Source: the human T2T-CHM13v2.0 reference genome, Homo sapiens. From it: a stretch of 64,000 bases of DNA. Positions within the stretch are counted from its first letter, which is position 1. The number at the start of each line of letters is the position of its first letter. Shown here piece by piece: positions 1 through 57,700 of the stretch. The notes under the pieces are model-generated. The model worked only from the letters and a program-made list of their open reading frames with translations. It was not told where the DNA came from and searched no databases. The position numbers were made by a program, and so were the translations under genes. The DNA lies in assembly GCF_009914755.1 (NCBI RefSeq), contig NC_060933.1; one strand, given 5' to 3'.

Positions 1-1047
1 GGCCCATGCATTTCTTATTCCTGAAAGACTGTTTGTCTGTTAACAGGTATGAATTTGCAAGCACAGGTTCTGGTGTGCAGAAAATATCAACTTCTTCTGC
101 TTTAACCAATCAATAGAAATCCAATTTCTGTCACTTGCTATGGAATTCAGCATCAGAAATTGTTCTAATGGAGATACCCATGAAAGTGTGCACTAAACCC
201 AGGATCTTAGCACCAAAGCACAAAGCTCCTCAGGCTGCACTGCTCTCAGCTGCTACCACTGCAACACTCAATGCAATCCTGCATGGTCCTCTCAGCTCTG
301 TGCCTGCTTCTATCTCTGGGGACAGAAAGAATGTCAACAAAGATGATATCTCTTCCCTTGGGCACAACATTGTCATTTATTCTAAGGTCTTTGCCTCTTT
401 AGGCCATGGGTACTGAACACTGCACAGCAAAACCAGGCTTTCTACCTCAGCAAAGTATAAAGAAATTATCATATTCTCTCCCTTCAGTCTCATTTTCTGT
501 CTCTCCCTGCCTCTATTTCTTTCTCTTTGACTCAGGTCTTGTCAGGGACACTTGCATAACCTTCCGCTTGTCATCAGGCATTTACAAACAATTCCAAGTG
601 CTGCTTTAAGTACCTCCTGTGTACAGCCCTTCAAAGATGGACTAGACAGGCAAAAACCACCAAGACCCAGAGAGTCTGCTCAAAATGAGCTAGGCAAATG
701 CAGATGTGACAGAATTGTAAGATACAATGAGACCAAGCTAGGATAACTCAAGAAATTATACTAACACACATGCCAATCACTAACCTTTTCGGCCTTTCCT
801 TTTCTCTGGTTTTCCAATATTATTTTCATAAACAAACACCAATCATTTTCCTACGACACTTCAAAGTATCTCTCTGAAGTTCTCCACATCTCATTACCTG
901 TGGATCCCACTGTAGATAAGCTTCCCTCTGACACTCTGGTCCTGTCAGATGCCACAATGGTCCCCAGTGCCCAAATCCAGTGGTGACTCTTGGCTCTTGT
1001 TCTCCTTTACTCCTCTTTCATATTTCATCCTGTGTTACTATGATTGG

Positions 1048-1474
1048 TGTATTAGTCAATTCTCACATTACTATAAGGAAGTATCTGAGACTGGGTAATT
1101 TATAAAGAAAAGAGTTTTAATTGACTCATGGTTCTGCAGGCTGTACAGGAAGCATGATGCTGGCATCTGCTCAACTACTGGGAAGTCCTCAAGAAACTTC
1201 CACTCATGGCAGAAGGTGAAGCAGGAGCAGAACTTCACATGGCTAGAGAAGAAGCAAGAAAGAGAGGGAGGGGGGACTACACACATTTAAAACACCAGAT
1301 CTCATGAAAACTCACTCACTATCACAAGGACAGTACCAAGAGGGGATAGTACTAAACCATTCATGAGAAATTCACCCCCATGATCAAGTCACCTCCCACC
1401 AGGCCCCACCTCCAACACTGGGGATTACAATTCGACTTGAGATTTGGTGGGGGACATAGATCCAAACCATAACA
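1048..1474 (-). mobile_element. MaLR solo LTR (MSTA/MSTB-like)
   Basis: TGTATTAGTC...CCAAACCATAACA termini; 5-bp TSD ATTGG. Confidence 0.85.
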
Positions 1475-1619
1475 ATTGGAGTATACAGTACAAAAAGTTA
1501 TAATATTATGTAATATGCAGGGATAAATAAGCAACAGATGCAATTGAATTACTCCTAAAAATCTCCCTGTAGGGTCTTTGGGGAATAGCTAGGTGATGTT
1601 TCCTGTATTTTTTTTTAGC

Positions 1620-1880
1620 ACACTAGAAGCCATTGGGAATCTTTACAAATGCAGAGGGCTGGTTCAACCGCCAGTCATAATGACTTCATTGCCTCAGCGT
1701 GCGGCATAGCAGGTGGAGTTCTTAGAGATCGCCAGGAGATTCCAATGTGCTGCTATGTTGGAGAACCACTGGGCTGGGGTAAGGATGCAGGTTGCAGTGG
1801 GGGCCAGGAAAAACTGGCTGATCTGAGAATGATCAGGTGTCATTTTAAGGAAGAGATTCCAGGGTATAGGTGATTGGACT
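1620..1880. mobile_element. Ancient L2-like fragment
   Basis: Degenerate L2 3'-region motifs (GAAGCCATTGG..., ...GGTGATTGGA). Confidence 0.4.
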
Positions 1881-2999
1881 TTACTATAAAGTTAGTTTTC
1901 TCTAAGCAGGAGAAGTACAAGCTGTGTCATTCCTAAATCATGTGGAAACACAGCAGTCTTATTGTGAATGCACGGAAGATATGCAGGGAAGACGGTTAAC
2001 AAACTACTGGAAAAGGCATTTGAAGTCCTACATATATTTACATACAGGCAGATCTGAATATTTCCCCCTTTCTCTTGGGTAGAAAGCATGCAAGAACTGG
2101 AATAGGTACCTTCTTTGGTTTAATACTGGAACTAAAGAGTATGAAAAAGAACTAAAAAAGTGATTTGGTGGTGAGAAAGAAATAGGAATGATTACCTCAG
2201 GTTACACCACAAGCAACTTTAAAGCCCTATTGCCCTGGACTTTTGCCTAATACAGACCCTCCACTTTCCTCTTGATCACCTTTTCTCCAACTCACAATTC
2301 TCTGTGACTTCCTCTTTTACCCACAGCAACTACTTCAGTTCCTCTCTTCAAAGAGGTGAATCATCCTAGGATGGGTCCTCCTGTGGCATACCTAACCTCA
2401 TCCCTATGTATCACAGAATTATTAATCATACAGGCTTTGCCTTTTTTTAGTTCTACTAATAAGAGCACTTAGTACACTTTTCACTCTGTAGCCAGGTTCT
2501 ATGGTTCCACCATCTTCCTACCCATCAGCCCCAGAAGCTGCAAATATCTCATGATCAAGTGCAATTTCTTTTAATTAACATGTGTTGAGCAGCTATCCCA
2601 CAGTCAGCTCACAGGAGCTCACTGTCTAGTGTAAGAAGCTGATAAGTAACAGGGGAATAAGTGCTATGAGATCAGAAGAGCATAATTGAGAACATAATGA
2701 ACCCATAGGGAATGGGGTCCTCTTCATTGCCATCATGGGAAGAAGGAAACCTAGAGGAAGCAACATAAGGGAAGAAAGTTTGCATAACCAAAGACAACAG
2801 GAAATCTTTTAAAATACTGATGCCTGGTTCCCACACTTGGACACACTGATTAATTTTTGCAGCATTCCAGTTGATTCCATAGCAGTTGATTCCAATATGC
2901 TACAAATTTGTAATACCAGTGGGATGGGTAAGGGCCCAGGTTTGAAATGGGAGCCATGGATGACTGGCTGATCTAAGAGGTCAGTCATATTACTGAGAA

Positions 3000-12902
<9,903 letters not shown>

Positions 12903-13084
12903 ATATCCCACTGATAAAAGCATCAGATCTCATGAGACTTATTCAATATCATGAGAACAGTATGGGGGAAACTGCCCCAATAATTCAAATTATCTCCCAC
13001 TGAATCCCTCCCATAATATGTGGGAATTGTGGGAGTACAAGTCAAGATGAGATTTGAGTGGGGACACAGAGCCAAACCATATCA
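12903..13084 (-). mobile_element. THE1 LTR half
   Basis: ...GGGACACAGAGCCAAACCATATCA terminus; the other half is deleted at the L1PA junction. Confidence 0.85.
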
Positions 13085-14272
13085 AGCTGGTACTGTGACC
13101 TGGAGGACTGTCAGGTGAGAGTTCCTACTCATGACTAGTTCTGTACTTTCTATTGGTTGCCCTCAAGCTACTGACCAATTGGAATCACTGCTCACAGGGC
13201 CCTACTTGATATCTCATTGGCTGCCCACACTTAATCCTCACTCTGCTATTGCTGGTACCCAAAAGTTTGGACTTTTCCCTGTGACTTGCTGTTATTGAAA
13301 GGATGTCACCTGGAATCTGATCAGAGGGAGGGAAAATTGCAGAAACAGCAAACAGCCTTACCTGAGAGGCTCTTGGTGCCCTTTTCACCTGGCAGCCAGG
13401 GTGATCGGGTAGGGAGAATGGAGAAACTCAGAGGAGGTGATACTATCCTAAGACCCCACAGGAGGAAAGGTGTTCTGCACTGTTTTGATATTTCATTATA
13501 TTAAGGAAATGCTGTCCTTTTCAACTATAAAACCCGTTATAATTTTCTGACTCTACTTGGCATTAGTATTTTTTTTTCACAAATACCTCTCCCAACTTTT
13601 TACTTTTGAGTCAGGGTCTCACTCTCTCACCTAGACTTGAGTGCAGTGGCATGATCATTCCTCACTACAGCCCCAAACTCTGGGCTCAAGCAATCCTCCT
13701 GCCTCAGCTTCCCAAGTAGCTGGGACTACAAGCATGTGCCACCACACCCAGCTAGTTTAAAAATTTTTTTTTGTTGAGATGGGGTCTTGCTATGTTGCCC
13801 AGGCTGGGCTGGTCTCAAGCTCCTGGCCTCAAATGATCCTTCCACCTAGGACTCCCAAAGTGTTGGGATTACAGGAATGAGCCACTGTGCGTGGCTACCA
13901 CTTTTTTGACCTTACAGAATTCCTGTGAGCCTCCATCCACAAAAATATGGAAGCCTTAAATATTTTGGTTGAATTCATTCCTAATTTGCTACAAGGTATG
14001 AATGCAACATTTTCTGACAGAGAGTCATTACTGAAGGACCTACAACATTCAAGGGACTTGCTATCATTTCTTCTTCCTTTTGGTTTAGTTTCCTGTACAG
14101 TAAATTATGTATGAAAAATTAAGAATAAATTATATGATAGATAATAGTAATTATTTATTTGTTATGTAATCATTCTTTGCAATCTCTATTATACCTTTGC
14201 TGATGTCCAAGTCAGTCACCATGGGATATTAGAACCATGCAAAATCAGACTTAGTGTTTGCATTTTCATATG
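13085..14272 (+). pseudogene. Unprocessed relaxin/INSL4-like pseudogene (exon-1 3' end, intron with AluJ, exon 2, 3'UTR)
   Basis: Exon-1 relic LVL*PGGLS with donor CAG|GTGAGAG at 13114/13115. Intron 13165-13480 aligns to INSL4 intron 28820-29150. Acceptor TTACAG| at 13917. Exon 2 reads EFL*ASIHKNMEALNILVEFIPNLLQGMNATFSDRESLLKDLQHS, with an 18-nt exact match GAATTCATTCCTAATTTG (13971-13988 = 30796-30813). 14200-14272 aligns to INSL4 3'UTR 31028-31100. Confidence 0.88.
13597..13896 (-). mobile_element. AluJ
   Basis: Diverged antisense Alu with J-type CTCAAGCAATCCTCC; sits in the pseudogene pyrimidine tract. Confidence 0.85.
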
Positions 14273-15444
14273 TCCGTAAGAAACAGTCTTCCCAAAACTT
14301 TGTGTCAACAGTTAATCCTTTTTGCTAAAGAAGTTGTTCTGTCTTTTTATTAATGATATGAAGATATCAATAGTTTTTAAATCATATTTACTTTAAATTA
14401 ATCATAAAGTTTTTTTAATTACATTAACAAATATAATAACTTTATCCTGCCTAACTCCAGGTGCATAAAGACAACAAAACTGTTTTATGTACTTTGTCAA
14501 TTTAAATCATGTGAAAATAAAACCTCAAACCTTGCAATTTTCTGCTTGTGTCAGAGTGGACATACTTTGTATTATGGACATATTATTCGGAAACAACCAG
14601 AATATTTCCCAAATCTATTTTATTTGGAGTCTCATACCCAAATAAATTTGATTGTTGTTTAAAATAGTGGCCTTTTATGCTTCTAAGAGATCCAAGTCTG
14701 TATTGTTATATCAGAAAATCATTAGTCTTAAATGATTGCTTCTGTGTGTAACAGTCATAAATTAATAAGTGTATTCTCTGATGTGTAAGAAATAGCCTAC
14801 TTCTTTTTAATAAATGAAAGAAATTGAACTCTTCCACTGGGTGAAAAATTAATCTACAGACTTTTTTTTTAATGTTTTCCCTATTGAGTTGTGTCATGAA
14901 CCCTGGGTCTTAGTACCAACGCATCCAATATCTCAGGGCCCACCATGTTCAATGGCTCCTGCCTCAACACTCTCAGTGCTAATCTGAATGGACCCCTCTC
15001 TCAGTGATTTTCTCTCTGCATGGGTGCAAGAAAACTTTGTCCAAAGTTGCTGTCTCTATCCTGGGGTCCTACACATCTCCAACTCAAAGGTCTTCAACTC
15101 TCCATGGCTCTACCACTGAGCAGTGTACAGCAGAAACCAGGACTTGAACTAGATATAGATAAGAAATATTAATCTGTTTATATAATCTCTCACCTCCTTT
15201 CTTTGTCTTATATCTTGTGAGAGACCATTGCACAACATTTGGCTGAACAAGAATTTACAAATCATGGTAACTGTACCTTTAAGACTCCTTTTGACTTCCC
15301 TGTGATAGTTCACTCATTTGTCCTACTGGTTGGTGCATATGTCAAGGTTGCAACTTTTCCATTTCTTGATGGATGTATAGGCAACAAAAGCAATTAAAAT
15401 ACTCTCAATATATTGCAACAGGGTCTTTGGGCTGTGGATTGGAT

Positions 15445-15625
15445 TGGTTTCTCAACTTTTCAGCACACTAGATAAAACAGGGGGTCTTTCAAAATATTGG
15501 TGACCAGCTCTGATACCAAGATATACTGATTTGATTGTTTCAAACAGGCAACATAGGCACTGGGAGTTTTACTTAAAACTTCCCCAGGGAATGAAATGTG
15601 CAGTAGGAACGGAAAATGACTGAGC
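15445..15625. mobile_element. MER5-like hAT DNA transposon relic
   Basis: GGTTTCTCAAC start and a degenerate MER5 body. Confidence 0.45.
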
Positions 15626-15734
15626 AAGATTAGTGACTAGTTTGAGTAGGAGAAGATAGACCATTGGCTGAGCTAAAGTCATGCTATTGAGGAAGGAGAG
15701 TTCAGATTAAAGAGGATAGTGTTATTATTCTTTC

Positions 15735-25189: not shown

Positions 25190-25966
25190 CCTCCAGCTCC
25201 AGACTCTAGAGACAGTAATTGTAGTTTCAAATTAAGTATTCAGATAACTGGTAACAATTAATCAATCACCCATGGGAGTTCAAAGAAAGAAATTCATGGA
25301 AAGATACAATGTGATTTCTCCCAAGTATAAAAAAAACCTCCATGGGTGCTCTCCCAAGACTTAACAGTCAACCCTATAGGATGCCTGTGTTTCTCATCCT
25401 TCTCAGGATCAATGGAGGGCAGATGTAAGTACATACCTTTGAAGAAAGTTCCTTGTAAACTTCAAACATTGTTATACAAGCCTAAAGTGATGTTATTGGA
25501 ATTTTAATAGTGTTCACAGGACCTGGTTTAAACATCACTAGTCGTCTTTCTCTAATGAACAACTGATCCATCCACTCATCAAAATACTATGGATAGATAC
25601 ACAAGACAATATAGAAATCAATACAATATATTTTAATGTTTGGAAGAAAAAATACAAATAAATACGGAGTAAGTTAGGAGAAATATTAAATGTGGGAGTT
25701 GAGTCAGGCTGGTGGGAAAAATTTAAAGATAGTTATAAGAAAAAGATGCAAACCTTCTTGGAAGGCTGGAGGTGTTGCATAAGCTCCAGTAATAGATCAG
25801 GCTGGAGGCAGCCTAATCCTTACCTTGAGTTAATAGCTTAGGGCACAGATACAAAGGAATGTATAGTAGTTTATCTAAATAGCTTGTTTACACATGTGGT
25901 CTTAAGACCAACCTTTGATCAACCGCAGGTGCATAATTGCTCTCTACTCGGGAGGGTGGCAATGTC

Positions 25967-27636
25967 TACACTCTATTGGGCTCATATCTTAGATCCACTT
26001 TTCTTTTGCCCTGTCACTTGGGTATACAACCCCTTCCCAGCCTTTAATAACGTGACTGCTTAGCTAGGAGGGATAGATTTACCCCCAGTGGGGTTCCTCA
26101 ATAATGGCACACATTGGACTAAGGTGCCAGATAACACTACAGATCACTCTACTATCCTCCCATTGTGTGTAAATTATAAATGTTCTAACCCTTAGTGTGC
26201 ACCTACTGAAACACAATTATGGCTACATCATGGCAAAAGAAGTGCCTTAACAGTCTTAGCTGCAGGTAGCCTCAAAACGGAAATCAAGTCTGCTTTCCCA
26301 AACATTCCTTCCTGTGCTAAAGAACAAAGCCGGAAAAATAACGGATTCCACTTTAGCTGGGAGATCTGTCATGGGGAATAAGCTCATAGCCTCCAGTTAG
26401 GCAATTATAACATCCTAGACTGGAGCCCCTGTGGCCATTTGTAGGGCAGCCTTACTGATATCCTCATCCATCATGGCATCGATCACAGTTTCATAGCCTC
26501 GTCCCATTCCCTTATGATTTGGGCCGATGGGAGGATAGGATATCCCAGACCCCGAGTAAAGTTGATGCCTCCCCAAGACACTTTATGTTGCCTGGGACAT
26601 CTTAGCACCTCCCTTGACACCTGGCATGGGACATATCATAATTACAGTAACAACTATACTATAACCTTTATTCATAATCACACTGATCAGTCCCTAATTT
26701 GCAACTCCATCCATATGTTTTCCTTATGGGAACTAATATTTCTATTACAACCCAAAATTCCATGTTTGTGACCCGGGTGCAAGGACAGGCTTTGTTTGCC
26801 TCATGTACCACTAATTACAATATATCTAATTTAAATACTACTAGTGTCATGGTATTAAGGAGACAATCTGAGGCATTCCTACCCGTCAATTTGACACACT
26901 ATTGGCAAGGTTCCTCTTCCTTTGCCACCTTAGAATGTGCCCTATCCCAGGTCAGACCCAAAAGATTTATAGGCACACTTATAACCTTTATAGTCTCAGC
27001 CATAGTCATCCTAGCAACTGCTAGTGTGGCTATAGCATCTACTACCGAATCAGTGCAAACAGCTGCTTTTGTAGACAATTTGGCCAGAAATGTGTCTAAT
27101 GAACTTCTCTTACAGCAGGGTATAGATCAAGAGATTCTTGCACGTCTGCAAGCCCTCGAGGCTGCCTTGGAATTTGTGGGGGAGCGACAAGATGCCCTAG
27201 CATTCTGATAGCAATTAAACTGTGACTGGGAGCATAAACATATCTGTGTCACATTTTTACCTTGGAATCAATCAATACATAGTTGGGATGAGGTGAAACA
27301 ACACCTCTGGGGAAACTTTCATGACAATTTAACAGCAGACGTAAAGCAACTTAAAACTAAAATTTTAGAATCCCTTCACATGATAGATCTACATACTCAA
27401 CAAACAGCCATATGGAAAGGTGTGCAAGATCATTTCTCCTGGTTATACCCCCGATCCTGGGGGTCACACTTTGACTGGAAAGGAATGTTACTAATTATAC
27501 TCATGATTGTCTTACGTTATTTGCTAATTCTATGATGCAAAGCCGGAATAAAAGCAAAACCTAACAAACCTGTTGCTGCACACATCTGTACTCTTAAGTC
27601 AACAGAACCCGATGCAAAGAACAGAAAGGGGGGAGA
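25967..27636 (+). pseudogene. HERV-K-like env pseudogene (SU part + TM)
   Basis: TLYWAHILDP SU motif, furin-like RPKR, fusion peptide FIGTLITFIVSAIVILATASVA, heptad repeat, CDWEHKHIC loop and hydrophobic anchor. Frameshifts in SU; stops at 27206-27211 and 27533. Confidence 0.88.
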
Positions 27637-28130
27637 TGTGAGAGTTCAGTCAGGCTGGTGGGAAAATTTTTTCAGATAGTTATAAGAAAAAGACGCAAAC
27701 CTTTTTGAAACGCCGGAGGGGTTTGTATAAGCTCCAGTAATAGATCAGGCTGAAGGCAGCCTAATCCTTACCTTGAGTTAATAGCTTAAGGCACAGATAC
27801 AAATGAATGTAGTTTATCTAGTTTGTTTACTCATGTGGTCCTAAGACTAATCTTTGATCAACCGCGGGTGCATAATTGCTCTCTACTCGGGAGGTTGGCA
27901 ATGTCAATTACCTTCTAGTGGTGTTTACTCAAGACCTTCGTCATTTAATCTATGCTGAATAAATGTGAGCTTTGCTGGCTGATCGGGGCCACGGCTGCAA
28001 CTCTTTACAGCACCCTCCTTGGTGTCTGTAGGTGGCCCGGACCCTCAGCTGGACTGACAGGCAAACTATCTGTGTCAGTGTATGTTATTCATCCGTCGTT
28101 GGGTCAGGGTCTGTGGGACAGACCCCCGCA
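27637..28130 (+). promoter_or_regulatory. 3' LTR, reported placental regulatory element of INSL4
   Basis: Complete ~494-bp LTR (AATAAA 27958-27963) ending 482 bp before the INSL4 ATG. ERV-LTR control of placental INSL4 expression is prior knowledge. Confidence 0.8.
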
Positions 28131-28409: not shown

Positions 28410-28612
28410 TGTAGGTGGGTGGGAAAGGGGTGGAACTGACACCATTGACGCAAAAGCTGAGTAATAGCCCTAAGCAAATAAATGCCTGATGAAGGCATGC
28501 AGAAAGCAGTCTGGAGCCCAGAAGGGACACACCAGCACAGTCTGGTAGGCTACAGCAGCAAGTCTCTAAAGAAAGGCTGAGAACACCCAGAACAGGAGAG
28601 TTCAGGTCCAGG
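28410..28612 (+). promoter_or_regulatory. INSL4 proximal promoter and 5'UTR
   Basis: GT/GC-box tract 28414-28433, TGACGCAA (CRE|C/EBP-like) 28446-28453, TGAGTAA 28458-28464, TATA-like AAATAAAT 28476-28483, about 30 nt before a likely TSS near 28508. Confidence 0.6.
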
Positions 28613-28808
28613 ATGGCCAGCCTGTTCCGGTCCTATCTGCCAGCAATCTGGCTGCTGCTGAGCCAACTCCTTAGAGAAAGCCTAGCAGCAGAGCTGAGGG
28701 GATGTGGTCCCCGATTTGGAAAACACTTGCTGTCATATTGCCCCATGCCTGAGAAGACATTCACCACCACCCCAGGAGGGTGGCTGCTGGAATCTGGACG
28801 TCCCAAAG
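28613..28808 (+). CDS. INSL4: INSL4 coding exon 1 (signal peptide + B chain + start of C peptide)
   Basis: ATG at 28613; [43 protein letters not shown]...SGRPK matches placentin/EPIL. Phase-1 donor AAG|GTGAGA at 28808/28809. Confidence 0.98.
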
Positions 28809-30286
28809 GTGAGAGCCCTGGACTACCAAACAATCAGAATGAGGCCTGAAAAAACAGGCTCCAGATCTCATTGACTGCCTGTAGTCAACTCAGACTCTAC
28901 TGTGGCTAGTGCCTACAAGTTTGTGGTTTTTCATTGTAATGTGCTTTTATTAAAAGGGTCTCACCAGAAATCTCATGGGAAGTTGGGGGTAGAGGAGAAG
29001 CTGCAGGAAAAACAGAAGAACAGCCTCACCTTGGAGGCTCTTGGTGCCTTTCCCACCTGGCAGCCAGAGATACAGGGTGGAGAAAACAGGGAATCCTCAG
29101 AGAAGGTGACTATTCTCAAACACCAGCAGGAGGTGAGGTGTACTCCCAGACCCCCAGGAAAGCTGGGCAGGCCAGAAAACAGGTGTGATTGCAATGAGAT
29201 GCCTGGGCCAGGCATCTTCAATTAAGAAGAAAGGGGACAAACAGTGAGGTGATGAGCTGATTATCATTTCTGTTTATGCACCTATTGGCCTAGGGGCAGC
29301 ACACTGAGACCTCTGTTAGGTTCCTGGAATGTGAGATAAAGGGGGCTTAGATTTAATAACTCTCATCCTTTGTCATTAAGCTGGGCAGTGGTCTATGTCA
29401 CCAAAAACGTCCTCTTACAAAAAAGTTTTTTTTAATGCACACCAACAGAGCACCTTGCCTCCCATTTCTTTGAATCTACTCTTGTAGTGTGTTGAGAGAG
29501 ATGAGATGAAGAGAAAGAAAGTGGCCTGGATGACTAGAGGGGAAATTGAAGGGGACCAGAGACAAGGGAATTTCACTGTTCAGACCATCATAGCTGATTT
29601 GATTAGTGTTTTCAACATTTGAGACTGCAAAGCATTTTCTTTAAAAGCAAGATTTCAGAATTGAGGAAAGTTCAATACCAGGATAGTTTTCAAACTTTAC
29701 CAAGTAACAAGGTATTCATAAAGATAAATTGCCAGCTAAGTTAAAACTAGCAGGGGCAGTTTCGAAAAGAGATAGAGGCTACTATATTCTGTCTAATAGG
29801 TCGTATTAAGTTCTGAAAAGCTAAGTTAAATTACTAAACATTGTTTTACATTTAATACAAATGACACAGGTTTTGAACCAGCAATGTGTGACTCCAGAAC
29901 TGCTTCTTGTAACCCATATGCATACACTTCATTAAATCATTAAATGACTCTGTTTAAAGTTATCGTGCACAGTGAATGCACTTGGATTTTGTGTGATTTA
30001 TATAACGATTTCAAAGTTATTTCCTTTTTTTACATTATTAGTCAGAGCTTGTTTCATTTTACTATAAAATAAGGGAAGAATACCACAAAGTCCAAACAAT
30101 TTCTAATGCAAACTAAGGAAGAGCATGCTGTACTATAATTTCTATTTAAATTTCACTTTTTTTCAGTAAATAAGTGAAAATCCTCATTTAAATACTTTGA
30201 CAAATATAGATAAATTTAACAAGAAAAATGGAAAGTATTCATGGATAACAAATGTTAACATTTGGTGTCGACACATATAGATGTAT

Positions 30287-30319
30287 GTTGCTTCTCAGCC
30301 TTTTAGCTAAGATCCACTG
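30287..30319 (+). pseudogene. 3'-truncated U2 snRNA retrocopy in the INSL4 intron
   Basis: GTTGCTTCTCAGCCTTTTAGCTAAGATCCACTG vs U2 5' end ATCGCTTCTCGGCCTTTTGGCTAAGATCAAGTG; 12-bp TSD ATATAGATGTAT (30275-30286 / 30320-30331). Confidence 0.85.
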
Positions 30320-30742
30320 ATATAGATGTATAGATTTATGTGGATCAGATTTGAATATCTGAATCTTTCTATTAGAATAACTTGTGATTATAAAAAAAAT
30401 TCCCTATTGCTATCCAGTACATAATGCATTGAGGTTATCAATCAAAACAGTGTCAGGGAGAGTCAAAAGTGGTATGGTATAGGCATTTAGAGGGTCATTA
30501 GAAGAGTGCATAGAGGGGACAGGATGAGGAGTTAGCATATCCTTAATATTGTAGTATCTTAAAGTGCCCTACTCTAAGTAAGCTAAGTTGTTGAAATGTT
30601 AGGATACTTGCTGATTCTCTCTGGTGTTTAATTACATGGAGGCAATGGGTACATTGTGGTCTAGGCAAATTGTATAATTTTTCTGATCCTCTTTCACATG
30701 AATGTTTTTCCTCACCTTTCATTCCTCTCTTTTACTTCACAG

Positions 30743-30966
30743 AAATGGTGTCAACCTCCAACAACAAAGATGGACAAGCCTTAGGTACGACATCAGAATT
30801 CATTCCTAATTTGTCACCAGAGCTGAAGAAACCACTGTCTGAAGGGCAGCCATCATTGAAGAAAATAATACTTTCCCGCAAAAAGAGAAGTGGACGTCAC
30901 AGATTTGATCCATTCTGTTGTGAAGTAATTTGTGACGATGGAACTTCAGTTAAATTATGTACATAG
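30743..30966 (+). CDS. INSL4: INSL4 coding exon 2 (C peptide, RKKR cleavage site, A chain [15 protein letters not shown])
   Basis: Pyrimidine tract plus CAG| at 30742; G|AA rebuilds Glu; 196+224=420 nt = 139 aa + TAG. Insulin-family CC-x3-C-x8-C A chain. Confidence 0.98.
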
Positions 30967-31037
30967 TAGAGTAATCATGGACTGGACATCTCATCCATTC
31001 TCATATGTATTCTCAATGACAAATTCACTGATGCCCA

Positions 31038-31043
31038 ATTAAA
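31038..31043 (+). terminator. INSL4 polyadenylation signal (ATTAAA)
   Basis: ATTAAA ~70 nt after the stop codon, followed by T/G-rich sequence. Confidence 0.65.
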
Positions 31044-33019
31044 TGATTGCTGTTTATTAGAACATGAGAATCATTATTAGTATTCACATGTTTCACTTGC
31101 TCTGTACTAATATAGTCTCTCCAAATGGAGGAAGTTAGATAGATGGAATAAGTTCTAGTAGTTGATAGTACAATGGGGAAATTATACTTAACAATAATTC
31201 ACTGTATATTCCAAAATAGCTAGAAGAGAATTGTAATGATTCCAACACAAAAAAGATGAATGTTAGTTTGGATGCATATCCCAATTACCCTGATTTGATC
31301 ATTACACATTATATACACGTATCAAAATATCACATGTACTACAAAAATGTGTATAACTGTAATATGTGAACTACAAACTTACTGGAAATAAATTTTTAAA
31401 GTTTTACACACATAAACACATACGTTCACACACACTCACTCAAGTCTCTTCATTTTTCCTCTTTTCACACTAGAAGAAATGTAAGAGATAAAGGATCTAA
31501 CCATCTCTAACATCAGCTCATAGTACGGAGGAAAAGCAGTGAAGGAATGAACTGGTGGGAGAGGTATTAGGCATGTTCACCCTAGGGTAAACCCAGAGAC
31601 CTCCCTAGAACTTTGCCCAATGCATATCCTCCACCTGCCTCTCAGCACGCTGCCTTTAGACCTTCAATCATTCTATAAACTCCTCTTTTGTCCCTGGCAT
31701 TACTCCACATCCCCTCATCAAAGTGGTGAATTGGCACAAATACTGGCATTCCTCTGGCTACACATACCTCCTCCCTATGTGTCTCTAAATCCTAAATCAA
31801 AGAGTACATTTTATACTCTGTCAGTGAGGTTCTACTAGTTGTGTTTGTTTGTTTGCAGGCTAACTGAAGCTGCTACTACCTCATTATCAGGTCCTATAAA
31901 CTTAATTCAAGTGGCATGATTTGAGTAGCCCCCTGTGCCTGCCCATAAAGTGCTCTGAATCTAGTGTGGGACATGGAGAAGCAAAGGATAATAAGTGCAA
32001 TGATACTTGTAGGTCATCATAGAGACTGTAATGATCCACAGGAATCAGGGTCGTGTTTAATGCCAACATGTGAAAGAATAAATATACAGGGAACAGTGTA
32101 GGTAAGAGGAGAGAGCAAAATTTCCCTAAGGAAACTGATGGCTGATCTGCATCTTGAAAGACATCTAAGCAGAAGAGAGTGCAAAAAGGGACAAGTAGAA
32201 GCCCAGGAAAATGCACAAAGGCCTGGAAGCATAGCATGTGTGGAAACAGCCAGAGTCAGCAGGGCAGGAGGTGGTGTGGAGAAAAGGAATTGTCAAGATC
32301 TGGTTGGAATGGAGACAGGAGAGAGGATCTCAAACGATTCCACACAATGCAGCTATGGGGTTTAGGCTGCATCCTGGAGTAAGGAAGAACTGCTCATGAT
32401 CTTGATACATCTCTCATAAAGAACTTTTTCCTACCAATACTCTATTGAAGATGAAGAGGGATCATGGGAGTCATAGGGCAGAACTCATAGATTATACTGT
32501 ACAGTCTGAACTGTACCACCTGGTTTGCCTAGACTCCTCTAGATTGTTCTTTGAGAACAAAGGGGAGAAGCGCATAAGGTGTATTTCTTGACAGTAGTGT
32601 CGATCAATAAAATATCAATATTTTGGGTCTCTACGTTATTCATGATCAATGATTGAGTTTACTCTATGTGTCTATCAGTTTTCTAGGACTTTAGGATTCA
32701 GGAGAGAAAAAATAATAATTATGCTTTCATGGAGCTTCTACCTGGTTACTTGACTGACTCTGAACCTTCTCTTGGCACATGCATTCTATACATAATTCTA
32801 TTCTTTTAGTAAAAATAGAGGTATGAAAAGAGGATAATAGAGAAAGCTCCATAATTTTATCTGGTGTCTATCATTTCAATCTCTTAACCAGGAAATACCC
32901 AAAGACTGCTTCCAGGAGGATTTTTAGGAGATGGAAATATCTCTCACTCTTTGTCCCACTGCTTATAAACCTGCATGACACCCTAAAGTGACAGCAGGAC
33001 AGGCACCTAGAGTGGTTCC

Positions 33020-33816
33020 AAGGATGTATGAAGTCCTTCAGCTGCTTTAAGAAAGTACACAAACTGGTGGCTTAAGGCAATTGAAATACATTTTCTCCCA
33101 GTTCTGGAGGTTAGACATAGAAAGATGATGCACTTTCCGTAACAGGTACAGTATAATCCTCACTGGCTTCTGGTGGTTTGCTGTCAATCTTTGGCATTCC
33201 TTGGCTTGCAGGTGCCAATCTTCAGCCTCCACACTGTCCATACATGGTGTGCTCTCCGTTTCTGTGTGCACATTGTTTTCTTATGAGTACACTAGACATT
33301 TTGATTTAAAGGTCCACTCAGGCTATGATGACTTCATCTTAACTAATTATATCTGCAACAATTATTTTTATAAGCATATTCTGAAGGATTATTATCTTAG
33401 TCCATTTTCTGTTGCTAATAACAGAACACCTGAAATTGGGTAATTTATAAAGAAAATAAATTTATTTCTTACAATTAAGGAGTGTAGGAAGTGCCAGAGC
33501 CTGTCCTGGCATCTCATGAAGACTTTCTTTCTGATGGGAAATCTCTACTGGGTCTTGATGTGTTGCAGAGTATCACACAGCAAAAGTCCAGAGCATGCTA
33601 ACATACTTGCTTAGGTCCCCCTTCCTCTTTTTATATAAGCTACCATTTCACTCCTCTGATAATCCACCAATCCTTTAATTCATGAAAGGGTTAATCCCCT
33701 CATGAGAGCAGAGCTTTCATGACCCAATCACTACTTAAAGGCTCCAACTTTAATTCTGCCAAAATGGAGAGTAAGCTTCCAACACATGAAATTGTGGGAC
33801 ACATTCAAACCATGGC
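33020..33816 (-). mobile_element. Nested MaLR LTRs (MLT1-like + MST/MLT1A-like)
   Basis: MLT1 motifs (AAACTGGTGGCTTAA, GACTTCATCTTAACTAATTA), then ATCTTAGTCCATTTT...CAAACCATGGCA. Confidence 0.7.
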
Positions 33817-36413
33817 AAATGTTGGTTATGACTACAGTATGTCTTTTATGGGTCCTAGCTGAACCAAAGATACCTGAGGGAACACAGCAATTTACCTCTC
33901 CATTCTCTCTCTACAAGTTATTTAGAAATAAACCATTCCTCAGAGGACACAGAACACAAATATTTCTTCTAGTAAATATAAAATGGTACAGTGAAAATGG
34001 AAAAGCATTTGATAGTTTTTTTAAAAAAAACTAAATATGAAAATACTTTATAACCCAAAACTTTCACTACTAGATCTTTACCAAATATTCACACAAAATT
34101 ATTTATATGAATGTCCATAACAATGTTGGATTTTTTGTTAACACTTGGGCATTATGGAATGTCCATCATTATGTCTATAACATAACTATGAATGCTTCTT
34201 TATAGTAATGAAACACTGGAAACACCCCAATGCCCTTCATATATGAAGATTTAACAAAGTCTGGTATATCCATATCATAGAACACTACTCATCTATTAAA
34301 ATGAGCCAATTATTAATACACAAAACAACCTGGACAAATTTCAAGAAAACTAGGCTAAGTATAAATCATCGGTCACAAAAAGTAACATTTTGTGATTCCT
34401 TTTTATAAAATGTTCTTGAACAAAATTATAGAAAATAGGAATAATTTTTCAAGGTGAAGGCCAGGGAGTGGGGCACGAGTGGGTAGTAGGTGTGACTATA
34501 AGGATTGCTTGAGGTGCTGAAATAGATTTATATCATGCTTCTATCATGGCCAATATTCTGGTTTTGACATGGTACCATTGTTTGAAAAGATATAGTCATT
34601 GAGGACAACTGGGTAAAATGCATTCAGAATCTCTGTAAATTATTCCTTACAGGACATATATGACCCTACAATAATCACAAAATTAAAACTCTGGAAACAA
34701 CAAGAAAACAAACAAGCTAGTTCAAAAATGGGAAAATAACTTGAATATATATCTTGCATAAGAAGATACACAAATGACTTACAAGCACCTGAAAAGATGC
34801 TCAATATTATTAATCATTAAGGAAATGCACACAAAAACCACAATTAGGTATCATTTCACATTCATTAGGATGGTCACTATAAAAAGAACACAAAAACATA
34901 ATAGAAAACAACAAGTGTTTGCACATACATGTAGAAATTGGAAATCTTGTGCACTGTTGTTGGGAATGTAAAATGGTACAGCCATTGTGAAAACAGTATG
35001 GTAGTTCTTCAAAATAGAAAATGGAATTATGATATAAGCAGTAATTCCATTTTCAGCTATATATCCCAAAGTATTGAAAGCAGGGCCTCAACTAGATGTT
35101 TATAGACTCACGTTCAGAGCAGCATTATTCATATTACCTAAAAGGTGAAAGAAATACATGTATCCATTAATGCGTGAATGCATACACACAATTTGACATA
35201 TACATACAATGAAATGCTTTTGGTCTTGGAAAGAAATTCAGATACATGCTACAACATGGATGAACCATGAGGTTTTTATGCATACTTAAATATGCTAGTC
35301 ACAGAAGAATGAATATTATATTATTTCACATATATAAGATACGTAGAATACTAATATTTACAGAGACAGAGCATGGAATGGTGTTTTCCAAAACAAGGAG
35401 GGAAAAGTGAATAGGGATTCATTGTTCAATGGGTATATAGTTTCAGTTTTGCTAAAAGAAAAACAATATGAATGTAGTTAATACCCCTGAACTGGACATT
35501 TAACAGTGGTTTAGATGGTAAATTTTATGTTACATGTTTCCAATGTATTCACAACTTAAAAACTCATCAACATAGATGAAATTGGAGGACATTATTTGAA
35601 ATGAAATAATCCAGTCACAGAAAGAAAAATACCGCTTAAACTCACTTATAAGTGAGATCTAAAAAACTCAAACTTACAGAAGGAGAAAGTAGAATACTGG
35701 TTAGCACATTATTCAGTGGAAAGAGGAATTTGGAAGATGTTGGTCAAAGAATACAAAATTTCAGATAGAAGAATGATGTTCAAGAGACTTACTGTACAAC
35801 AAGGTAACTAAAGTTAATAAAGTATTGCATATTTGAAATTTGCTAAGAGAGTAGATTTTAAGTGTTCTCACGACAAAAAAACTATGTAAGATAAACCATA
35901 TGGTAATTAGCTCAATTCAGTCATTCCACAATGTATACCTCTTTTAAAATATCATCTTACAATTTTTATTTTTCAATTTAAAAATTTAGAGAATGATGTC
36001 AGCAAGATGGTAGACTAGGAAGCTCCAACTCTTGTTCTCCTACAGAAACATAAGAAAACACCCAGAAACTCTGGAAATAACCTTATAGAAGTTCCAGAAA
36101 ATAGTCAAAGACTTACAGCAACCAAATAAATTGTCACTCAAGAAGAAACCAGTTTCAAGATGGTAGAACAATTTTGCAATAATTTCCTGCCCTTCCCACA
36201 CCACTGGTGCAGCAATAATCTTGGTCTGGAAGTGATGGCAGCCCAGTTGTTAGTTTCCTCTCCCAAAGCGAAGGGAGCAGAGTAAACCTCATTTTCAAAT
36301 TCTTGTGTAGAGTTGAAGGCTATCTGAATGACAGGACTGTGTTTCCCCTAGCTTGGATTTTAGGCAGAAAAATCAGTGAGCACTGGTCATAAAACATGTG
36401 GGGAGAGCACAGG

Positions 36414-36464
<51 letters not shown>
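36414..36464. repeat. (CA)~25 microsatellite
   Basis: Perfect run. Confidence 0.95.
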
Positions 36465-36466
<2 letters not shown>

Positions 36467-36871
36467 CTGTCTGGGCAAGAATTACAGATGGATACATGCA
36501 ATAGGCCATTTAAAGACCAAGGAGAAGAGGTACAAAACTCTGTGGGTAATTAAGGCATTCAAATGCAGCTGTGTAAACTGGGGAATGGAGAAAATAACAC
36601 AAATGCCCAGGCATCACACATGCTCAGACAAGATCTCAGAAGGCTTTAAATTTTCACTTGGCCTGGTCACTAGGGTATGTATAAGTAAGCTCCATATCAA
36701 ATCAATCTACAAAGACTAGGATAGGTGGCTGTTTATTCAAATGTCCCATTTTTAATAAAAAATCAAAAGTTATACAAAGACACTGGAAATATGACACATC
36801 CAAATGTACAAAGGAATTGGACGAATACCACCCCTGAAGAAGCTTAGTCATCAGATTCACTACTAAAAGTC

Positions 36872-40657
<3,786 letters not shown>

Positions 40658-43496
40658 ATTCTATGAAGTCATCATTAATGTCACACCAACCTCAGACAAA
40701 AACTGTTAAGAAAAACAAACTACAGATCAATATCTGTTATTAATACTGACATAAAAACTAATATTCAAACAAGAGCACATTGAATTTAGTAGCATTTTAA
40801 GGCTATTATATATCAGGTTATGTAGAATTTATTCCTGAAAGCATGAAGGTTCAACATGAAAAAAAAATCAATATAAGATACCACATGTGTAAAATTAAGG
40901 GAAATAACTACCTGATTGACTTCATTTACAAAAAAATGGCAAAACCAACAGCCTTTCATAAAAAAATTCAATAATGTACAAACCAAATAAAATTTCTTCA
41001 ACATGACAAAAGCATGAAAAACACACAGCCAACATCAAACTCAATAGTAAAATACTGAAATCTTTTCCTGTACATTAAAGGAGACCGGAATATTCATTTT
41101 TCCCTTCTATTCAATAGTTTTGGAAGTCTTAGACAGAGTAATAAGTTTGAAGAAATTATAAAAATGATAAATATTAAAAAAGGAAAAGTAAAATATTTTG
41201 GTTGCAGAAGACATGATCTTACATGCAGAAAATCTTAAATATTCAATGCAAAAAAAGTTAGTGTAATAAATGAACTCAGCAAAGATGCATAATACAAAAA
41301 TCAACATGAAAAAATTAGTTACAGGTCATAGGCTGCTGGTCAGCCCCTCCAATCTCAAACTACAGGTCTGCTCCAGAACATGGCCAGCCCTACAGCTCCG
41401 GCTGGAAGGCCAGTCCACAAAGATTTGGAATCCAGTTATGTCTAGACTCTAGAACAGCCCCAGTGCTGCTAAGGCCCCAGGTGTTAGGCTTGCCCCAGGC
41501 TGCAGACCAGCAACTACAGATTTCAGATCTAGGCCAGCACCCATCATCCAAGGCACCAGTCTTTGCTCAGTTCCAGGCCCATTCCAGGTTCCAGACTGGT
41601 CTCCACAGACACAAGCTCCAGAGAAACCAAGATCCAAGTCAACCTCAGTGGATTCTAGTGCTGGGTCAACCATCACAGACTCAGCTACAGAACCAACCCT
41701 GCAGACACAATCTCCAGGCAGATACCCATGTTCTCATTATTCAGGCTTGTCCACAGACTCAAGTTCTAGGCCTGCCCATTCACTGACTCAAGCATCAAGT
41801 CAGCCCACATGCAGACTCCTGCTACAAGTATGCCCATGGACCTCCTCAGATGGCCTGCCCAGAAACTCTGGATGGGCTGATTGATGAAGGGTTTTTCCTG
41901 CCAAATCCAATCTGTAAAGATGGGAGGAGGTGCTTACTTCTTCACATGTACACGCACCAACTAAAGGTCAGAAGGATCATGACTGATTAGGAAAATATGA
42001 TACTACCAAAGGAACAAAATAAACCACCAGTAACCTACCCTATAGAAAGGGCTACCTATGAACTGCCTGAAAAAGTTTTCAAAACAGTCATCTTAAAGAA
42101 GCTCAATGAGATAAAAGAGAATACAGATAGATGACTGATCAAAATCAGGAAAACAATACATTAACTAAATGAGAAATTCCACAAAGATATAGGAACCATA
42201 GAAAGGTGCCAAACAGAATGCTGCTGCTGAAGAACACAAGACTAATGTGAAAAACTTCATAGAGAACTTTAACAGCAGACTTGATAAAGTAGAAGAAATA
42301 ATGAGTGAGCTCAAAGATAGGTCATTTGAAATTACACAATAAGAGCAAAAAGAAAAAAGAAAGGAAAAAGGTGATGAAAATCTATGAGACATATGGAACA
42401 CCATCAAATAAAAAAACAAAATATAAATTATGAGAGTCCTAGAAGGAGCAGAGAAAGAGAAAGGAGCACAAAACCTACTTAGAGATTTGAGGACAGAAAA
42501 CTTCCCTAATCTGGAAAGAGCCATTAACATTCAGATCCACTTAGTCCAGAGAACCCAAGATAGATCAAATATAAATAGATGTCCACTGAGATACACAAAA
42601 AAGAAAATTCTCAAAAGTCAAGAAGAAAGAGAGGATTTTCAAAGTGGCAAGAGAAAAACAATTGATCATATACAAGGTAACCCCCATTAGTTTAGCAGAT
42701 TTCTTGGCAGAAAGCTTGCAGGCCAAGAGAGAGTGGGATGATATATTCAAAGTGGTGAAAGAAAGAACAGTCAACCAAGGATACTATATCAGGCAAGCCA
42801 GTCCTTGAGAAACAAAGGCAAGATAAAGATTGTGCCAGACAAACAATGCTGTGAGAATTCATCACCACTAGATATGCTTTACAAAAAATGCTAAAGGGAT
42901 TTCTACAACTTGTAGCAAAAGTACTCTAACTATGGACATGAAAACATATTGTAAAGGAAAGAATGTAGTCAAATTCAAAATACTCTAATACTATAATAGT
43001 ATTGCATAAGTTTTTAGACTCTAATATAAAAGTTAAAAGTCAAGACTGTTAAAAATTTCAGTAGTTACAATAATAGTTAATGCATACAAGATATATAAAA
43101 GATGTAAATTGTGGCATTAATAGCATAAAATAGGTAGCAGGGGAAGAGAAAGTAAAGAGTAGAATTTTTGCATGCAGTTGAAGTTAAGTTGTATTCAGCT
43201 TAAAATAGATTACTGCAACTATAAGATAGTGTATACAAGCTATAAGCCTCATGGTGAAAAAAAAAACGTGTAGTAGGAACACAAGAGACAAAGAGAAAGG
43301 AATAAAAGCATACAACTACAAAAATTTCATCAAATCACACAGGAAGACAGCAGGAGAAGAACTGAAAAACAGAACGGCAAAACTTTCAGAAAGCAATGAA
43401 CAAATTGGTAATAGTAAGTTCTTACCTATCAATAATTACTTTTAATGTAAACACATTAAATTCTTCAATAAAAAGTTACAGAGTGGCCGAATGAAA

Positions 43497-54797: not shown

Positions 54798-57700
54798 GAT
54801 AAGATAAACTTAACTGCTTAACTAAGCAGACTCTTCATTAATCCCCTACAGCTGAACTTCTATAATACCCAATATTTTTGCCATAGGCTGTAAGTGCAGC
54901 AGCTGCATGTATACTTTTCCGCTTAGCCATTTCTATCATTTAGCATAACTTTCACAAGAGAATTTAAAGTCTGCTGTGTAACTATTGCCTTTGCAGTAGA
55001 ATCCGTTATAGAACCTATTATGAGGGATACGTCTCTAATCATTGCCTCTTTTATTCGAAACCACAGAAAAAAGACCTAACAAATGATGCCCTTCTATTAT
55101 AGAAGAGTGAAGGCCTCCTGGCAATGTTCTCTTTAACTCATGATGCGGGTTAAGAAAAGTGAATCAATGTTCTGTTTCTGACTAATTATGAGGCAACATA
55201 TATACCATTACAATTTCTCACCTATACTGGGCCTTCATATTTTACATATACATGGTTATCCATGTGTAAGGCTAGCTGAAAAATCCTTCACAAATAAAAG
55301 TATACCTTGTGAGTGTATACAACAGATCCCCTTTTCATTTCTATTGTTCATAGAGGCATAAAGAAGAAAAATATTCAAAGACATGAGTCTCCTGATAGTA
55401 GAAGTCTTGACCTGTGATCTTGGGAAAAGCTGTTCACATCAAGGATGCCATCTTCTTCTGGGGAGAGACTTCCCTGTTTAGCTTTACCTTAAGTGTTCCA
55501 ATGAGTGTATAGTTCCAAGAGTGTGGAGGAACCCTTCTCAGTTGTGAGATTATGAACCCAAAGTTCAAGTTTCCAAAGTTTTGCTGTAGTGTGGATGGCA
55601 AGGACACTCTTTCTCTGATGTTTTCAGAAGATCCAGTCTTTGGGTTGTGAAGATTGTGAAAGGGTTGATTGTCCTCAGGGAACCATAAAAAGCTTTCTTT
55701 ACAGGGTGAAAATACACTGTGTCATAATAACTTAGTATTATAATATCAGCCCTCTTGCATAGGAGAGCAATTATACATCCAGAAAGCTTGCATTGAAAAT
55801 AACAATTAAATGAAATCCCTTTATAAAATGTGTAAGCGGCCCATCAGGTGACCAAATGTACCCAAAGCTTTGATTGTTTTCCCAGGAATATGGGACCAAA
55901 CATTGGTTATAAACTATTTTAGCGATTTATAAGTCACCACACCAATATATTCAATTTGGATCACTTTATCTTTTCCATGATGCGTCATGGTGTTGTGGGA
56001 AGTCAGGGACCCTGAATGGAGAGGGACCGGCTGAAGCCATGGCAGAAGAACATAAATTGTGAAGATTTCATGGACATTTATTAGTTCCCCAAATTAATAG
56101 TTTTATAATTTCTTATGCCTGCCTTTACTGCAATCTCTGAACATAAATTGTGAAGATTTCATGGACATTTATCACTTCCCCAATCAATATTCTTGTGATT
56201 TCCTATGCCTGTCTTTACTTTAATCTCTTAATCCTGTCATCTTCGTAAGCTGAGGATGTATGTCACCTCAGGACCCTGTGATGATTGCACTAACTGCACA
56301 AATTGTTTAAACAATATGAAATCTGGGCACCTTGAAAAAAGAACAGGATAACAGCGATGTTCAGGGAACAAGGGAGATAACCATTAGGTCTGGCTGCCTG
56401 AGATCCGGGCAGAACAGAGCCATATTTCTCTTCTTTCAAAAGCAAATAGGAGAAATATCACTGAATTCTTTTTCTCAGCAAGGAACAGCCCTGAGAAAGA
56501 GAATGCTGTCCTAGGCAGAGGTCTCTGAAATGGCCGCTCTGGGAACATCTGTCTTTCACAGTTGCAGATAAGGGATGAAATAAGCACTGGTCTCCCGTAG
56601 CGCTCCCAGGCCTATTAGGAAGAAGAAATTCCCACCTAATAAATTTTGGTCAGACCAGTTGTCTGCTCTCAAACACTGTCTCCTGATAAGATGTTATCAA
56701 TGACAACGCATGCCTGAAACTTCATTAGCAATTTTAATTTCACCCTGGTCCTGTGATCTCGCCCTGCCTCCATTTGCCTTGTAATATTTTATTACCTTGT
56801 GAAGCATGTGATCTCGTGACCCACACCGTGTTCGTACACTCCCTCCCCTTTTGAAAACCACTAATAAAAACTTGCTGGTTTTGCGGCTTGGGGGGCATCA
56901 CAGACCTGCTGACATGTGATGTCTCCCCCGGCCACCCAGGTTTAAAATTTCTCTCTTTTGTACTCTTTCCCTTTATTTCTCAGACTGGCTGACACTTAGG
57001 GAAAATAGAAAAGGATCCACGTTGAATTATCAGGGGTGGGTTCCCCTGATATCATGGAATACAGAACTATTAATAACAAAAGCTTTAAGGACTCAAGAAG
57101 TACAGGGTGGCTATCCTGGTTCTCCATGAGAGCATGCTGAATTAACATTAGACTTATATCCTCTTGAATACCAGTTGTTTCTTTAAATTAGGTACATAGC
57201 ATTCATAACAGTTGGGTTATCATAGGTAATTTGACTTAGACCATGGAGTTCATTCAAATTGTATATCTAAACAATTTCAGTATCAGCTGATTTAGCACAT
57301 AAATATGGCAACGTATTTTCTAGATATTTAATTAATTTTTGTTCCTACTTGGGTTAGCAGTTTTATAACACAGTCAGTCTTTTCATTAAAATTCCAGGAA
57401 TTCTTACCCATTTCAAATGATATGATTCTGAAGTTATTAGAAACCTGTATTCAAGAGTGCTTTTTAGGGTACTTTCCATCCTTTCATAAACCTCCTAAAA
57501 GACATCATATTCTAGGATTTTGGATGTTCGTGAAGTTTTTAGAAACTGCATCAGCAGTAAGCAAATAACAGTGGAAATGACTTTAAGTAGTTATAGTTAA
57601 AAACACAAGGAAATTTGGTTATTTCTGTGGTCTACAATAACTCAATAACCATAATTATGATTGACAGCATATACTCAGACATATTGGAATTTTACAAATC

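What the first reader, a model, noticed from the sequence alone, without database searches (positions are those of the whole stretch)
30..1585. Window start is a paralog of the ghost gene's 3' flank, predicting another relaxin-like copy just left of position 1
30-620 aligns to ~14740-15290 (e.g. AACCCAGGATCTTAGCACCAAAGCA vs AACCCTGGGTCTTAGTACCAACGCA). 1530-1585 aligns to 15380-15432 (GCAACAGATGCAATTGAATTACTC...AGGGTCTTTGGG). In the other copy this block starts ~0.5 kb after the 3'UTR relic, so a further exon 2 is predicted within about 1 kb upstream of the window unless interrupted.
Basis: partly seen in the sequence, partly recalled or inferred. Interest (0 to 1): 0.7.

Follow-up and report, generated by a model that had tools for sequence, protein, structure and literature searches.

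The report
Tail of a dead INSL4 sister
The start of the window is the non-coding tail of a broken copy of the placental hormone gene INSL4 that lacks its coding second exon; it is one of several dead relaxin-family copies on human chromosome 9 missing from the RefSeq table, likely left by old tandem duplications and an inversion, and likely without function.

Summary
The alignment is real: 15-630 matches 14722-15301 at 63.8% (score 11391, shuffle maximum 2113), and 1521-1785 matches 15371-15636 at 61.9%. It is not a common repeat (2 genome-wide candidates, against 9584 for a control LTR).

The prediction half holds. A relaxin-like relic (B) lies at -2047..-1199: 0.7 kb of intron (79% to INSL4) fused straight to 3'UTR. 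A gap of about 482 bp covers the splice acceptor and all coding sequence of exon 2. B is a sister of INSL4, not of the ghost: its flank is 79% to a complete dead two-exon copy (A) on the minus strand at -9744..-6839, and 64% to the ghost.

Between INSL6 and RLN2 I count five gene-body relics and two flank-only relics. All 40 strong unit matches are plus-strand inside -2050..65867 and minus-strand outside. An old inversion of about 70 kb would explain this and INSL4's reversed orientation; that step is inferred.

Verdict: neutral debris of relaxin-family gene turnover. Two key papers on INSL4 pseudogenes could not be read and may already describe some copies.

The parts
1..810 (+). The rest of B lies just outside the window on the left: proximal flank -1199..0, 3'UTR remnant -1310..-1199, intron remnant -2047..-1311 (see full report, paragraphs 3 and 10)
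   Evidence: 63.8% to ghost flank 14722-15301; 78.9% over 729 columns to copy A flank; genome search gives only itself and A
1048..1475 (.). High-copy LTR inserted in B's flank (MaLR, MST/THE1 type; label recalled, from no call)
   Evidence: 9584 candidates genome-wide, best non-self matches 81-84%
1490..1880 (+). Its part after about 1600 is weakly palindromic and recurs at 2788-3047, so it is probably an old DNA-transposon relic (MER5-like; label recalled) shared by the copies
   Evidence: 62.9% to ghost 15360-15720 and 63.7% to C'; profile hits at 2788-3022 (E 6e-23) and on its own minus strand (E 0.007)
1796..2778 (+). Further downstream spacer Y of relic B
   Evidence: 69.6% to RLN2-upstream 107640-106785, 64.3% to INSL4-downstream 31376-32115; genome search gives only itself and the RLN2-upstream copy
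7005..11992 (+). F: duplicate of INSL4's downstream flank with no gene body in front of it
   Evidence: 86-87% in three blocks, 79% in a fourth
13084..14300 (+). Ghost gene C: end of exon 1, start of intron, exon 2 remnant 13898-14054, UTR remnant
   Evidence: exon-2 probes score 4454 and 4409 vs shuffle max 1582 and 1713
14719..15719 (+). Ghost's 3' flank, the in-window match of the finding
28508..32393 (+). INSL4, the only intact gene of the lineage. Its homology to the other copies stops at about 31128 and it has no copy of the flank X
   Evidence: annotation given with the finding

Best explanation
Window 1-1880 is the non-coding 3' flank of relic B, an INSL4-lineage relaxin-family gene copy whose remains at -2047..-1199 are intron joined directly to 3'UTR without any coding exon 2; it likely arose by tandem duplication, likely lost the exon by a deletion of about 482 bp, and likely evolves without function. 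How it likely came about (steps inferred): (1) very old tandem duplications of a unit '5' flank - exon 1 - intron - exon 2 - flank X - spacer' gave the RLN, INSL4 and ghost lineages (K2P about 0.43-0.53), which is why 30-620 matches the ghost flank at 64%; (2) later block duplications (K2P 0.22-0.30) gave three INSL4-lineage copies (A, B, INSL4) and at least two ghost-lineage copies (C, C'/D); (3) deletions removed B's exon 2, INSL4's own flank X and parts of the ghost; (4) an inversion from about -2047 to about 66-69 kb would have turned B, C, INSL4 and D onto the plus strand and cut off B's 5' half. Only INSL4 kept an open frame. Shown: the homologies, strands, lesions and lineage split. Inferred: order of events, the inversion, lack of function.
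For: Collinear homology over more than 4 kb of intron, UTR and flank. Four genome-wide searches with these blocks or with INSL4 exon 2 DNA, and one with B's upstream relic, return matches only at this locus, against 9584 candidates for the control LTR. Tree of the X2 block: (A,B) vs (C,C') 100/100; UTR block (A,B) 96/98; mid-intron (A, B, INSL4) vs RLN 100/100. The A-B distance is similar in flank (0.22, 0.25) and intron (0.28), as expected without selection. The 82-codon ORF at 168-416 is stopped after 18 codons in A (read). Strand pattern: of 49 profile rows, the 40 with E under 1e-5 are all plus inside -2050..65867 (17) and minus outside (23); by gene unit 4 plus and 5 minus. Two 3' halves sit back to back at the left switch and two 5' halves face each other at the right switch.
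Against: A clean two-break inversion predicts E+B and D+C' as split genes. E is mostly not of B's lineage: its 5' flank is 0.42-0.45 from A and INSL4 over 425-511 columns, though 0.30 from INSL4 over one 243-column piece, and its place in the tree is open. D is 0.09 from C while C' is 0.30 from C, so a later duplication or conversion must be added. About 3.2 kb between D and E matches no unit part. Three of the nine weak profile rows left out (E 0.0016-0.083) go against the strand pattern. The profiles were built from the same copies. No repeat library, no expression or chromatin data and no other species were available. The genome DNA search missed the 64% ghost match, so an ancient low-identity repeat inside the block is not excluded.
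Confidence: 0.88

Rival explanations
1. Same relics, no inversion: the INSL4 and ghost lineages arose in reversed orientation by an inverted duplication, and the block C'+A is a later inverted duplicate; the half genes at both switches are independent truncations.
For: E does not group with B. C'+A mirrors C+INSL4 at a fairly even distance (0.27-0.32), as one inverted block copy would give.
Against: Needs at least two orientation changes and four separate truncations that happen to leave 3' halves at one switch and 5' halves at the other. A's flank is closest to B's flank (0.25), which lies outside the C+INSL4 block.
Confidence: 0.35
2. The match is a shared ancient interspersed repeat inserted separately in two places.
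For: The block after about 1600 is palindromic and recurs at 2788-3047. No repeat library was available. The genome search is insensitive near 64%.
Against: 30-620 has 2 candidates genome-wide against 9584 for a real LTR. All four copies sit at the same place behind a relaxin UTR or its lost position, collinear over kilobases.
Confidence: 0.04
3. The flank was kept because it carries a regulatory element (for example an enhancer for INSL4, INSL6 or JAK2).
For: It survives in four copies, and the core around 190-260 aligns with few gaps.
Against: A-B distance in this block (0.25) is like that of the intron (0.28) and the proximal flank (0.22). INSL4 lacks it, and the profile finds no significant copy at RLN1 or RLN2 (E 0.1, 0.35).
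Confidence: 0.07

Closest known systems
INSL4 (placentin), NM_002195.2
   Same: B's intron is 79% and its UTR 83% identical to INSL4; copy A has the same two-exon layout at 76%.
   Different: B has no exon 1 and no coding exon 2. A has lost its start codon and carries stops. Both keep flank X, which INSL4 lacks. A lacks the 2.44-kb retroviral insertion in INSL4's promoter.
INSL4 pseudogenes of the relaxin family locus B (Arroyo et al. 2012, PubMed 22961112 and 22405815; only titles seen, in reference lists)
   Same: Dead duplicated INSL4-like copies at this locus. PMC3971578 states that the locus has a history of small-scale duplication and differential retention, defines pseudogenes by lesions or lack of exons, and lists the human interval Chr9:5,185,668-5,339,873 as examined.
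   Different: I could not see whether human copies A, B, C, D or E are named there (papers not held). PMC3971578 has 0 occurrences of 'inversion'.
RLN1 / RLN2 tandem pair
   Same: Same repeating unit; B's proximal flank aligns to both at 65-66%.
   Different: Both RLN genes are annotated as coding and lie on the minus strand; their duplication is younger (flanks 0.08-0.10).

Membership tests
Duplicated (unprocessed) pseudogene of the relaxin/insulin-like family, locus B | High similarity to a functional paralog at collinear positions | tested here: met
   B vs INSL4 79% intron, 83% UTR; A vs INSL4 76% over 2708 columns
Duplicated (unprocessed) pseudogene of the relaxin/insulin-like family, locus B | Inactivating mutations or lack of exons (definition in PMC3971578) | tested here: met
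   B lacks exon 1 and coding exon 2; A has lost ATG and has stops in both exons
Duplicated (unprocessed) pseudogene of the relaxin/insulin-like family, locus B | Intron and flanks retained (genomic copy, not a retrocopy) | tested here: met
   0.7 kb intron and more than 3 kb flank in B
Duplicated (unprocessed) pseudogene of the relaxin/insulin-like family, locus B | Located in the INSL6-INSL4-RLN2-RLN1 cluster | tested here: met
   annotation given with the finding
Duplicated (unprocessed) pseudogene of the relaxin/insulin-like family, locus B | No functional transcript or peptide | not testable with these tools
   no expression data; lack of an open frame only
Functional RLN/INSL gene | Two exons with an intact open reading frame (signal, B, C, A chains) | tested here: not met
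   B: no coding sequence; A, C, D: broken frames
INSL4 lineage (as against the ghost lineage) | Groups with INSL4 or A to the exclusion of C, C' and RLN | tested here: met
   three trees, 96/98 to 100/100; order among A, B and INSL4 unresolved
Interspersed repeat | Many dispersed copies in the genome | tested here: not met
   2 candidates for 30-620 vs 9584 for the control; search insensitive near 64%
Interspersed repeat | Match to a Dfam/RepBase consensus | not testable with these tools
   no repeat library held

The most novel reading that the evidence does not exclude
The INSL6-RLN2 interval hides a three-lineage array of at least seven dead relaxin-family units missing from the RefSeq table, and one inversion of about 70 kb, with its left break 2 kb left of this window, flipped INSL4 against its neighbours and beheaded two sister genes. 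Copy A preserves INSL4's promoter region as it was before the retroviral insertion, a built-in control for how INSL4 became placental.
Probability: 0.4. Interest if true: 0.5.

Novelty: new member of a known kind. Interest (0 to 1): 0.3.

Why it matters
The block itself is likely inert. Its value is as a marker. It leads to an INSL4-like pseudogene (A) and a relic (B) that the RefSeq table given here does not list, raises the count of relaxin-family units at 9p24, and offers a testable account of why INSL4 points the other way from INSL6, RLN2 and RLN1. Copy A gives a same-genome comparison for the LTR-driven placental promoter of INSL4 (Bieche 2003, seen only as cited in PMC3649676). No effect on health or on current gene function is shown.

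Tried and rejected
Hidden exon 2 near position 1: rejected; 0 of 8 probe comparisons beat shuffles and the exon-2 profile has no hit there. Coding role for the block: nine chance-sized ORFs overlap 1-1900 and two overlap the upstream relic; the longest is not kept in A. B as a twin of the ghost: rejected by distances and trees. E as B's missing 5' half: mostly unsupported. Intron remains between D and E: best scores 1729-2196 against shuffle maxima 1858-2280, one of four slightly above its maximum (2054 vs 1884, n=30), not confirmed by the intron profile. Pfam scan of A's A-chain stretch and of INSL4 exon 2 found nothing, the positive control included, so it says nothing. No genome-wide profile search was run; the profiles covered the fetched 197 kb only. 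Literature: eight searches showed no paper describing these human relics or an inversion. Three likely papers were not held, so absence from print is not shown.

Full report
Coordinates are window positions; values under 1 or over 64000 lie outside (chromosome position = window position + 5,208,000). Repeat family names (MaLR, L1, MER5) are recalled and come from no call.

1. Observation. A sensitive local alignment confirms both blocks: 15-630 vs 14722-15301, 367 of 575 columns, score 11391 against 100 local shuffles (max 2113); 1521-1785 vs 15371-15636, 161 of 260 columns, 5223 against 1653. Between them lie a stretch shared only with copy A (to 810) and a high-copy LTR at 1048-1475.

2. Repeat or paralog. 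A genome-wide search with 30-620 gave 2 candidates: itself and a minus-strand match 11 kb to the left, 82% over 320 bp. The ghost flank gave only itself and a second minus-strand copy at -2939..-2048. 1500-2800 gave only itself and a piece upstream of RLN2. The control LTR gave 9584 candidates. The search missed the 64% ghost match, so it cannot exclude a very old repeat. The part of the second block after about 1600 is weakly palindromic and recurs at 2788-3047; it is probably an old transposon relic that was copied along with the unit.

3. What lies upstream. Going left from position 1: flank to -1199; a 3'UTR remnant at -1310..-1199 (83% to INSL4 31019-31128); then, with no exon between, intron sequence at -2047..-1311 (79.1% to INSL4 over 704 columns). 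The join skips about 482 bp of INSL4-equivalent sequence (30538-31018: 205 bp of intron end with the acceptor, the 224 coding bases of exon 2, 52 bp of UTR), with one shared base. Two exon-2 probes on four targets covering -2999..3000 scored 1108-1525; 0 of 8 beat their shuffle maximum, and 2 of 2 found the ghost's exon 2 (4454, 4409). So the predicted copy (B) exists and the predicted coding exon does not.

4. Further left the strand switches abruptly at -2047/-2048. On the minus strand follow a ghost-type flank (C'), a 5' flank, and a complete two-exon copy A at -6839..-9744, 76.3% to INSL4 over 2708 columns. A has lost its ATG, has a stop in exon 1, a changed donor site and two stops in exon 2, and keeps the A-chain cysteine spacing. 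A's own flank (-10880..-11618) is the closest relative of window 1-810 (78.9%). The gene table given with the finding lists nothing between INSL6 and INSL4.

5. Lineages. K2P distances: A, B and INSL4 differ by 0.22-0.28 in mid-intron, UTR-flank and 5' flank blocks; C and C' by 0.30; the two groups by 0.43-0.53; RLN1/2 from either by 0.35-0.54. RLN1/RLN2 flanks differ by 0.08-0.10 and are dated to 29.6-44.2 million years in PMC3971578. The 0.25 split is therefore clearly older, and the 0.5 split is compatible with that paper's statement that INSL4 derives from a duplication in the placental ancestor. I give no finer dates.

6. The strand pattern. Seven block profiles run over the 197 kb held gave 49 rows. 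The 40 with E under 1e-5 are plus inside -2050..65867 (17 rows; units B, C, INSL4, D) and minus outside (23 rows; A, C', E, RLN2, RLN1). Nine weaker rows were left out; three of them go against the pattern. The profiles were built from these copies, so only strand and place are read from them. At the left switch two 3' halves sit back to back; at the right switch two 5' halves face each other: D (65114-65867, plus) and E (69043-71466, minus). One inversion of a head-to-tail array would give this picture. Against a clean inversion: E is 0.42-0.45 from A and INSL4 over most of its 5' flank (0.30 in one 243-column piece), D is 0.09 from C while C' is 0.30, and 3.2 kb between D and E is unassigned. 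Extra deletions and a later duplication or conversion are needed. The duplicate F (7005-11992, 0.14-0.15 from INSL4's downstream flank in three of four blocks) and a 1471-bp tract without a mismatch between RLN1 and RLN2 show that such events occur here. I put the inversion at about 0.55.

7. Mechanism. Shown: homology, strands, lesions, lineage split. Inferred: tandem duplication, deletion of B's exon 2 with minimal microhomology, inversion, neutral decay. The A-B distance is alike in intron and flank, and the longest ORF of the block is not shared with A, so I see no sign of selection on the block; regulatory use was not testable.

8. Literature. PMC3971578: parts 1-3 of 5 of the text, term passages and Supplementary Table S1 read. 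It defines pseudogenes at this locus by lesions or lack of exons and lists the human interval Chr9:5,185,668-5,339,873 as examined; the parts read do not list human relics, and the text has 0 occurrences of 'inversion'. PMC551602: passages only, 0 occurrences of 'pseudogene'. PMC3649676: one passage on INSL4's LTR promoter. PMC4987104: reference list only. The two Arroyo 2012 papers and a third paper were not held; their figures and supplements may already name copy A or others. Eight searches showed no description of these relics.

9. Verdict. Observation confirmed; interpretation partly supported. A new member of a known kind (duplicated relaxin-family pseudogene relic), likely inert. Interest 0.3; the inversion and array map would reach about 0.5 if confirmed across species and not in print.

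10. Parts outside the window. B proximal flank -1199..0, plus (B vs A 80.9% over 1175 columns with the UTR). B 3'UTR remnant -1310..-1199, plus. B intron remnant -2047..-1311, plus. C' flank -2945..-2048, minus (75.5% to the ghost flank, 64.8% to B's). Copy A -9744..-6839, minus. A's flank -11618..-9745, minus. D 65114-65867, plus (91.9% over 223 columns to ghost 13084-13312, 68.4% to RLN2). E 69043-71466, minus.

Noticed in passing
window 100111-101581 (L007) vs the matching stretch of RLN1, about 135280-136750 (L009): RLN2 and RLN1 have no mismatch over 1471 bp (3' part of exon 1 and the first 1.35 kb of the intron), against about 6-12% mismatches on both sides. Looks like a very recent gene conversion; an allele or assembly effect of this genome is not excluded. 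PMC3971578 mentions only a small exon-1 tract in chimps and bonobos.
   Followed up: partly
window 25690-28130: The retroviral insertion in INSL4's promoter has two LTR pieces 91% alike over 281 columns and the same 6 bases on both sides; copy A runs through this site without the insertion (-6844/-6839).
   Followed up: partly
window 7005-11992: Duplicate of INSL4's downstream flank (31133-36753 and 41446-42007), 86-87% in three of four blocks, with no gene in front: trace of a further lost INSL4 copy.
   Followed up: partly
window 31128-32513: INSL4's 3'UTR homology ends at about 31128; a repeat fragment follows, then spacer that is 0.50 from B's spacer, so INSL4's downstream flank seems to come from another unit.
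   Followed up: partly
window 13084-13312 vs 65642-65865: Ghost 5' piece and D are 92% alike, much closer than other ghost-lineage pairs; the ghost may be a hybrid.
   Followed up: partly
window -7310..-7520 (L003, minus): Copy A's exon 1 keeps a stretch resembling the start of the RLN2 B chain that INSL4 has shortened.
   Followed up: no
window 55991-57051 vs -22871..-21800: A 1-kb match (69-86%) to a stretch inside the INSL6 span, with a short tandem repeat at 56048-56231; probably a medium-copy repeat.
   Followed up: no
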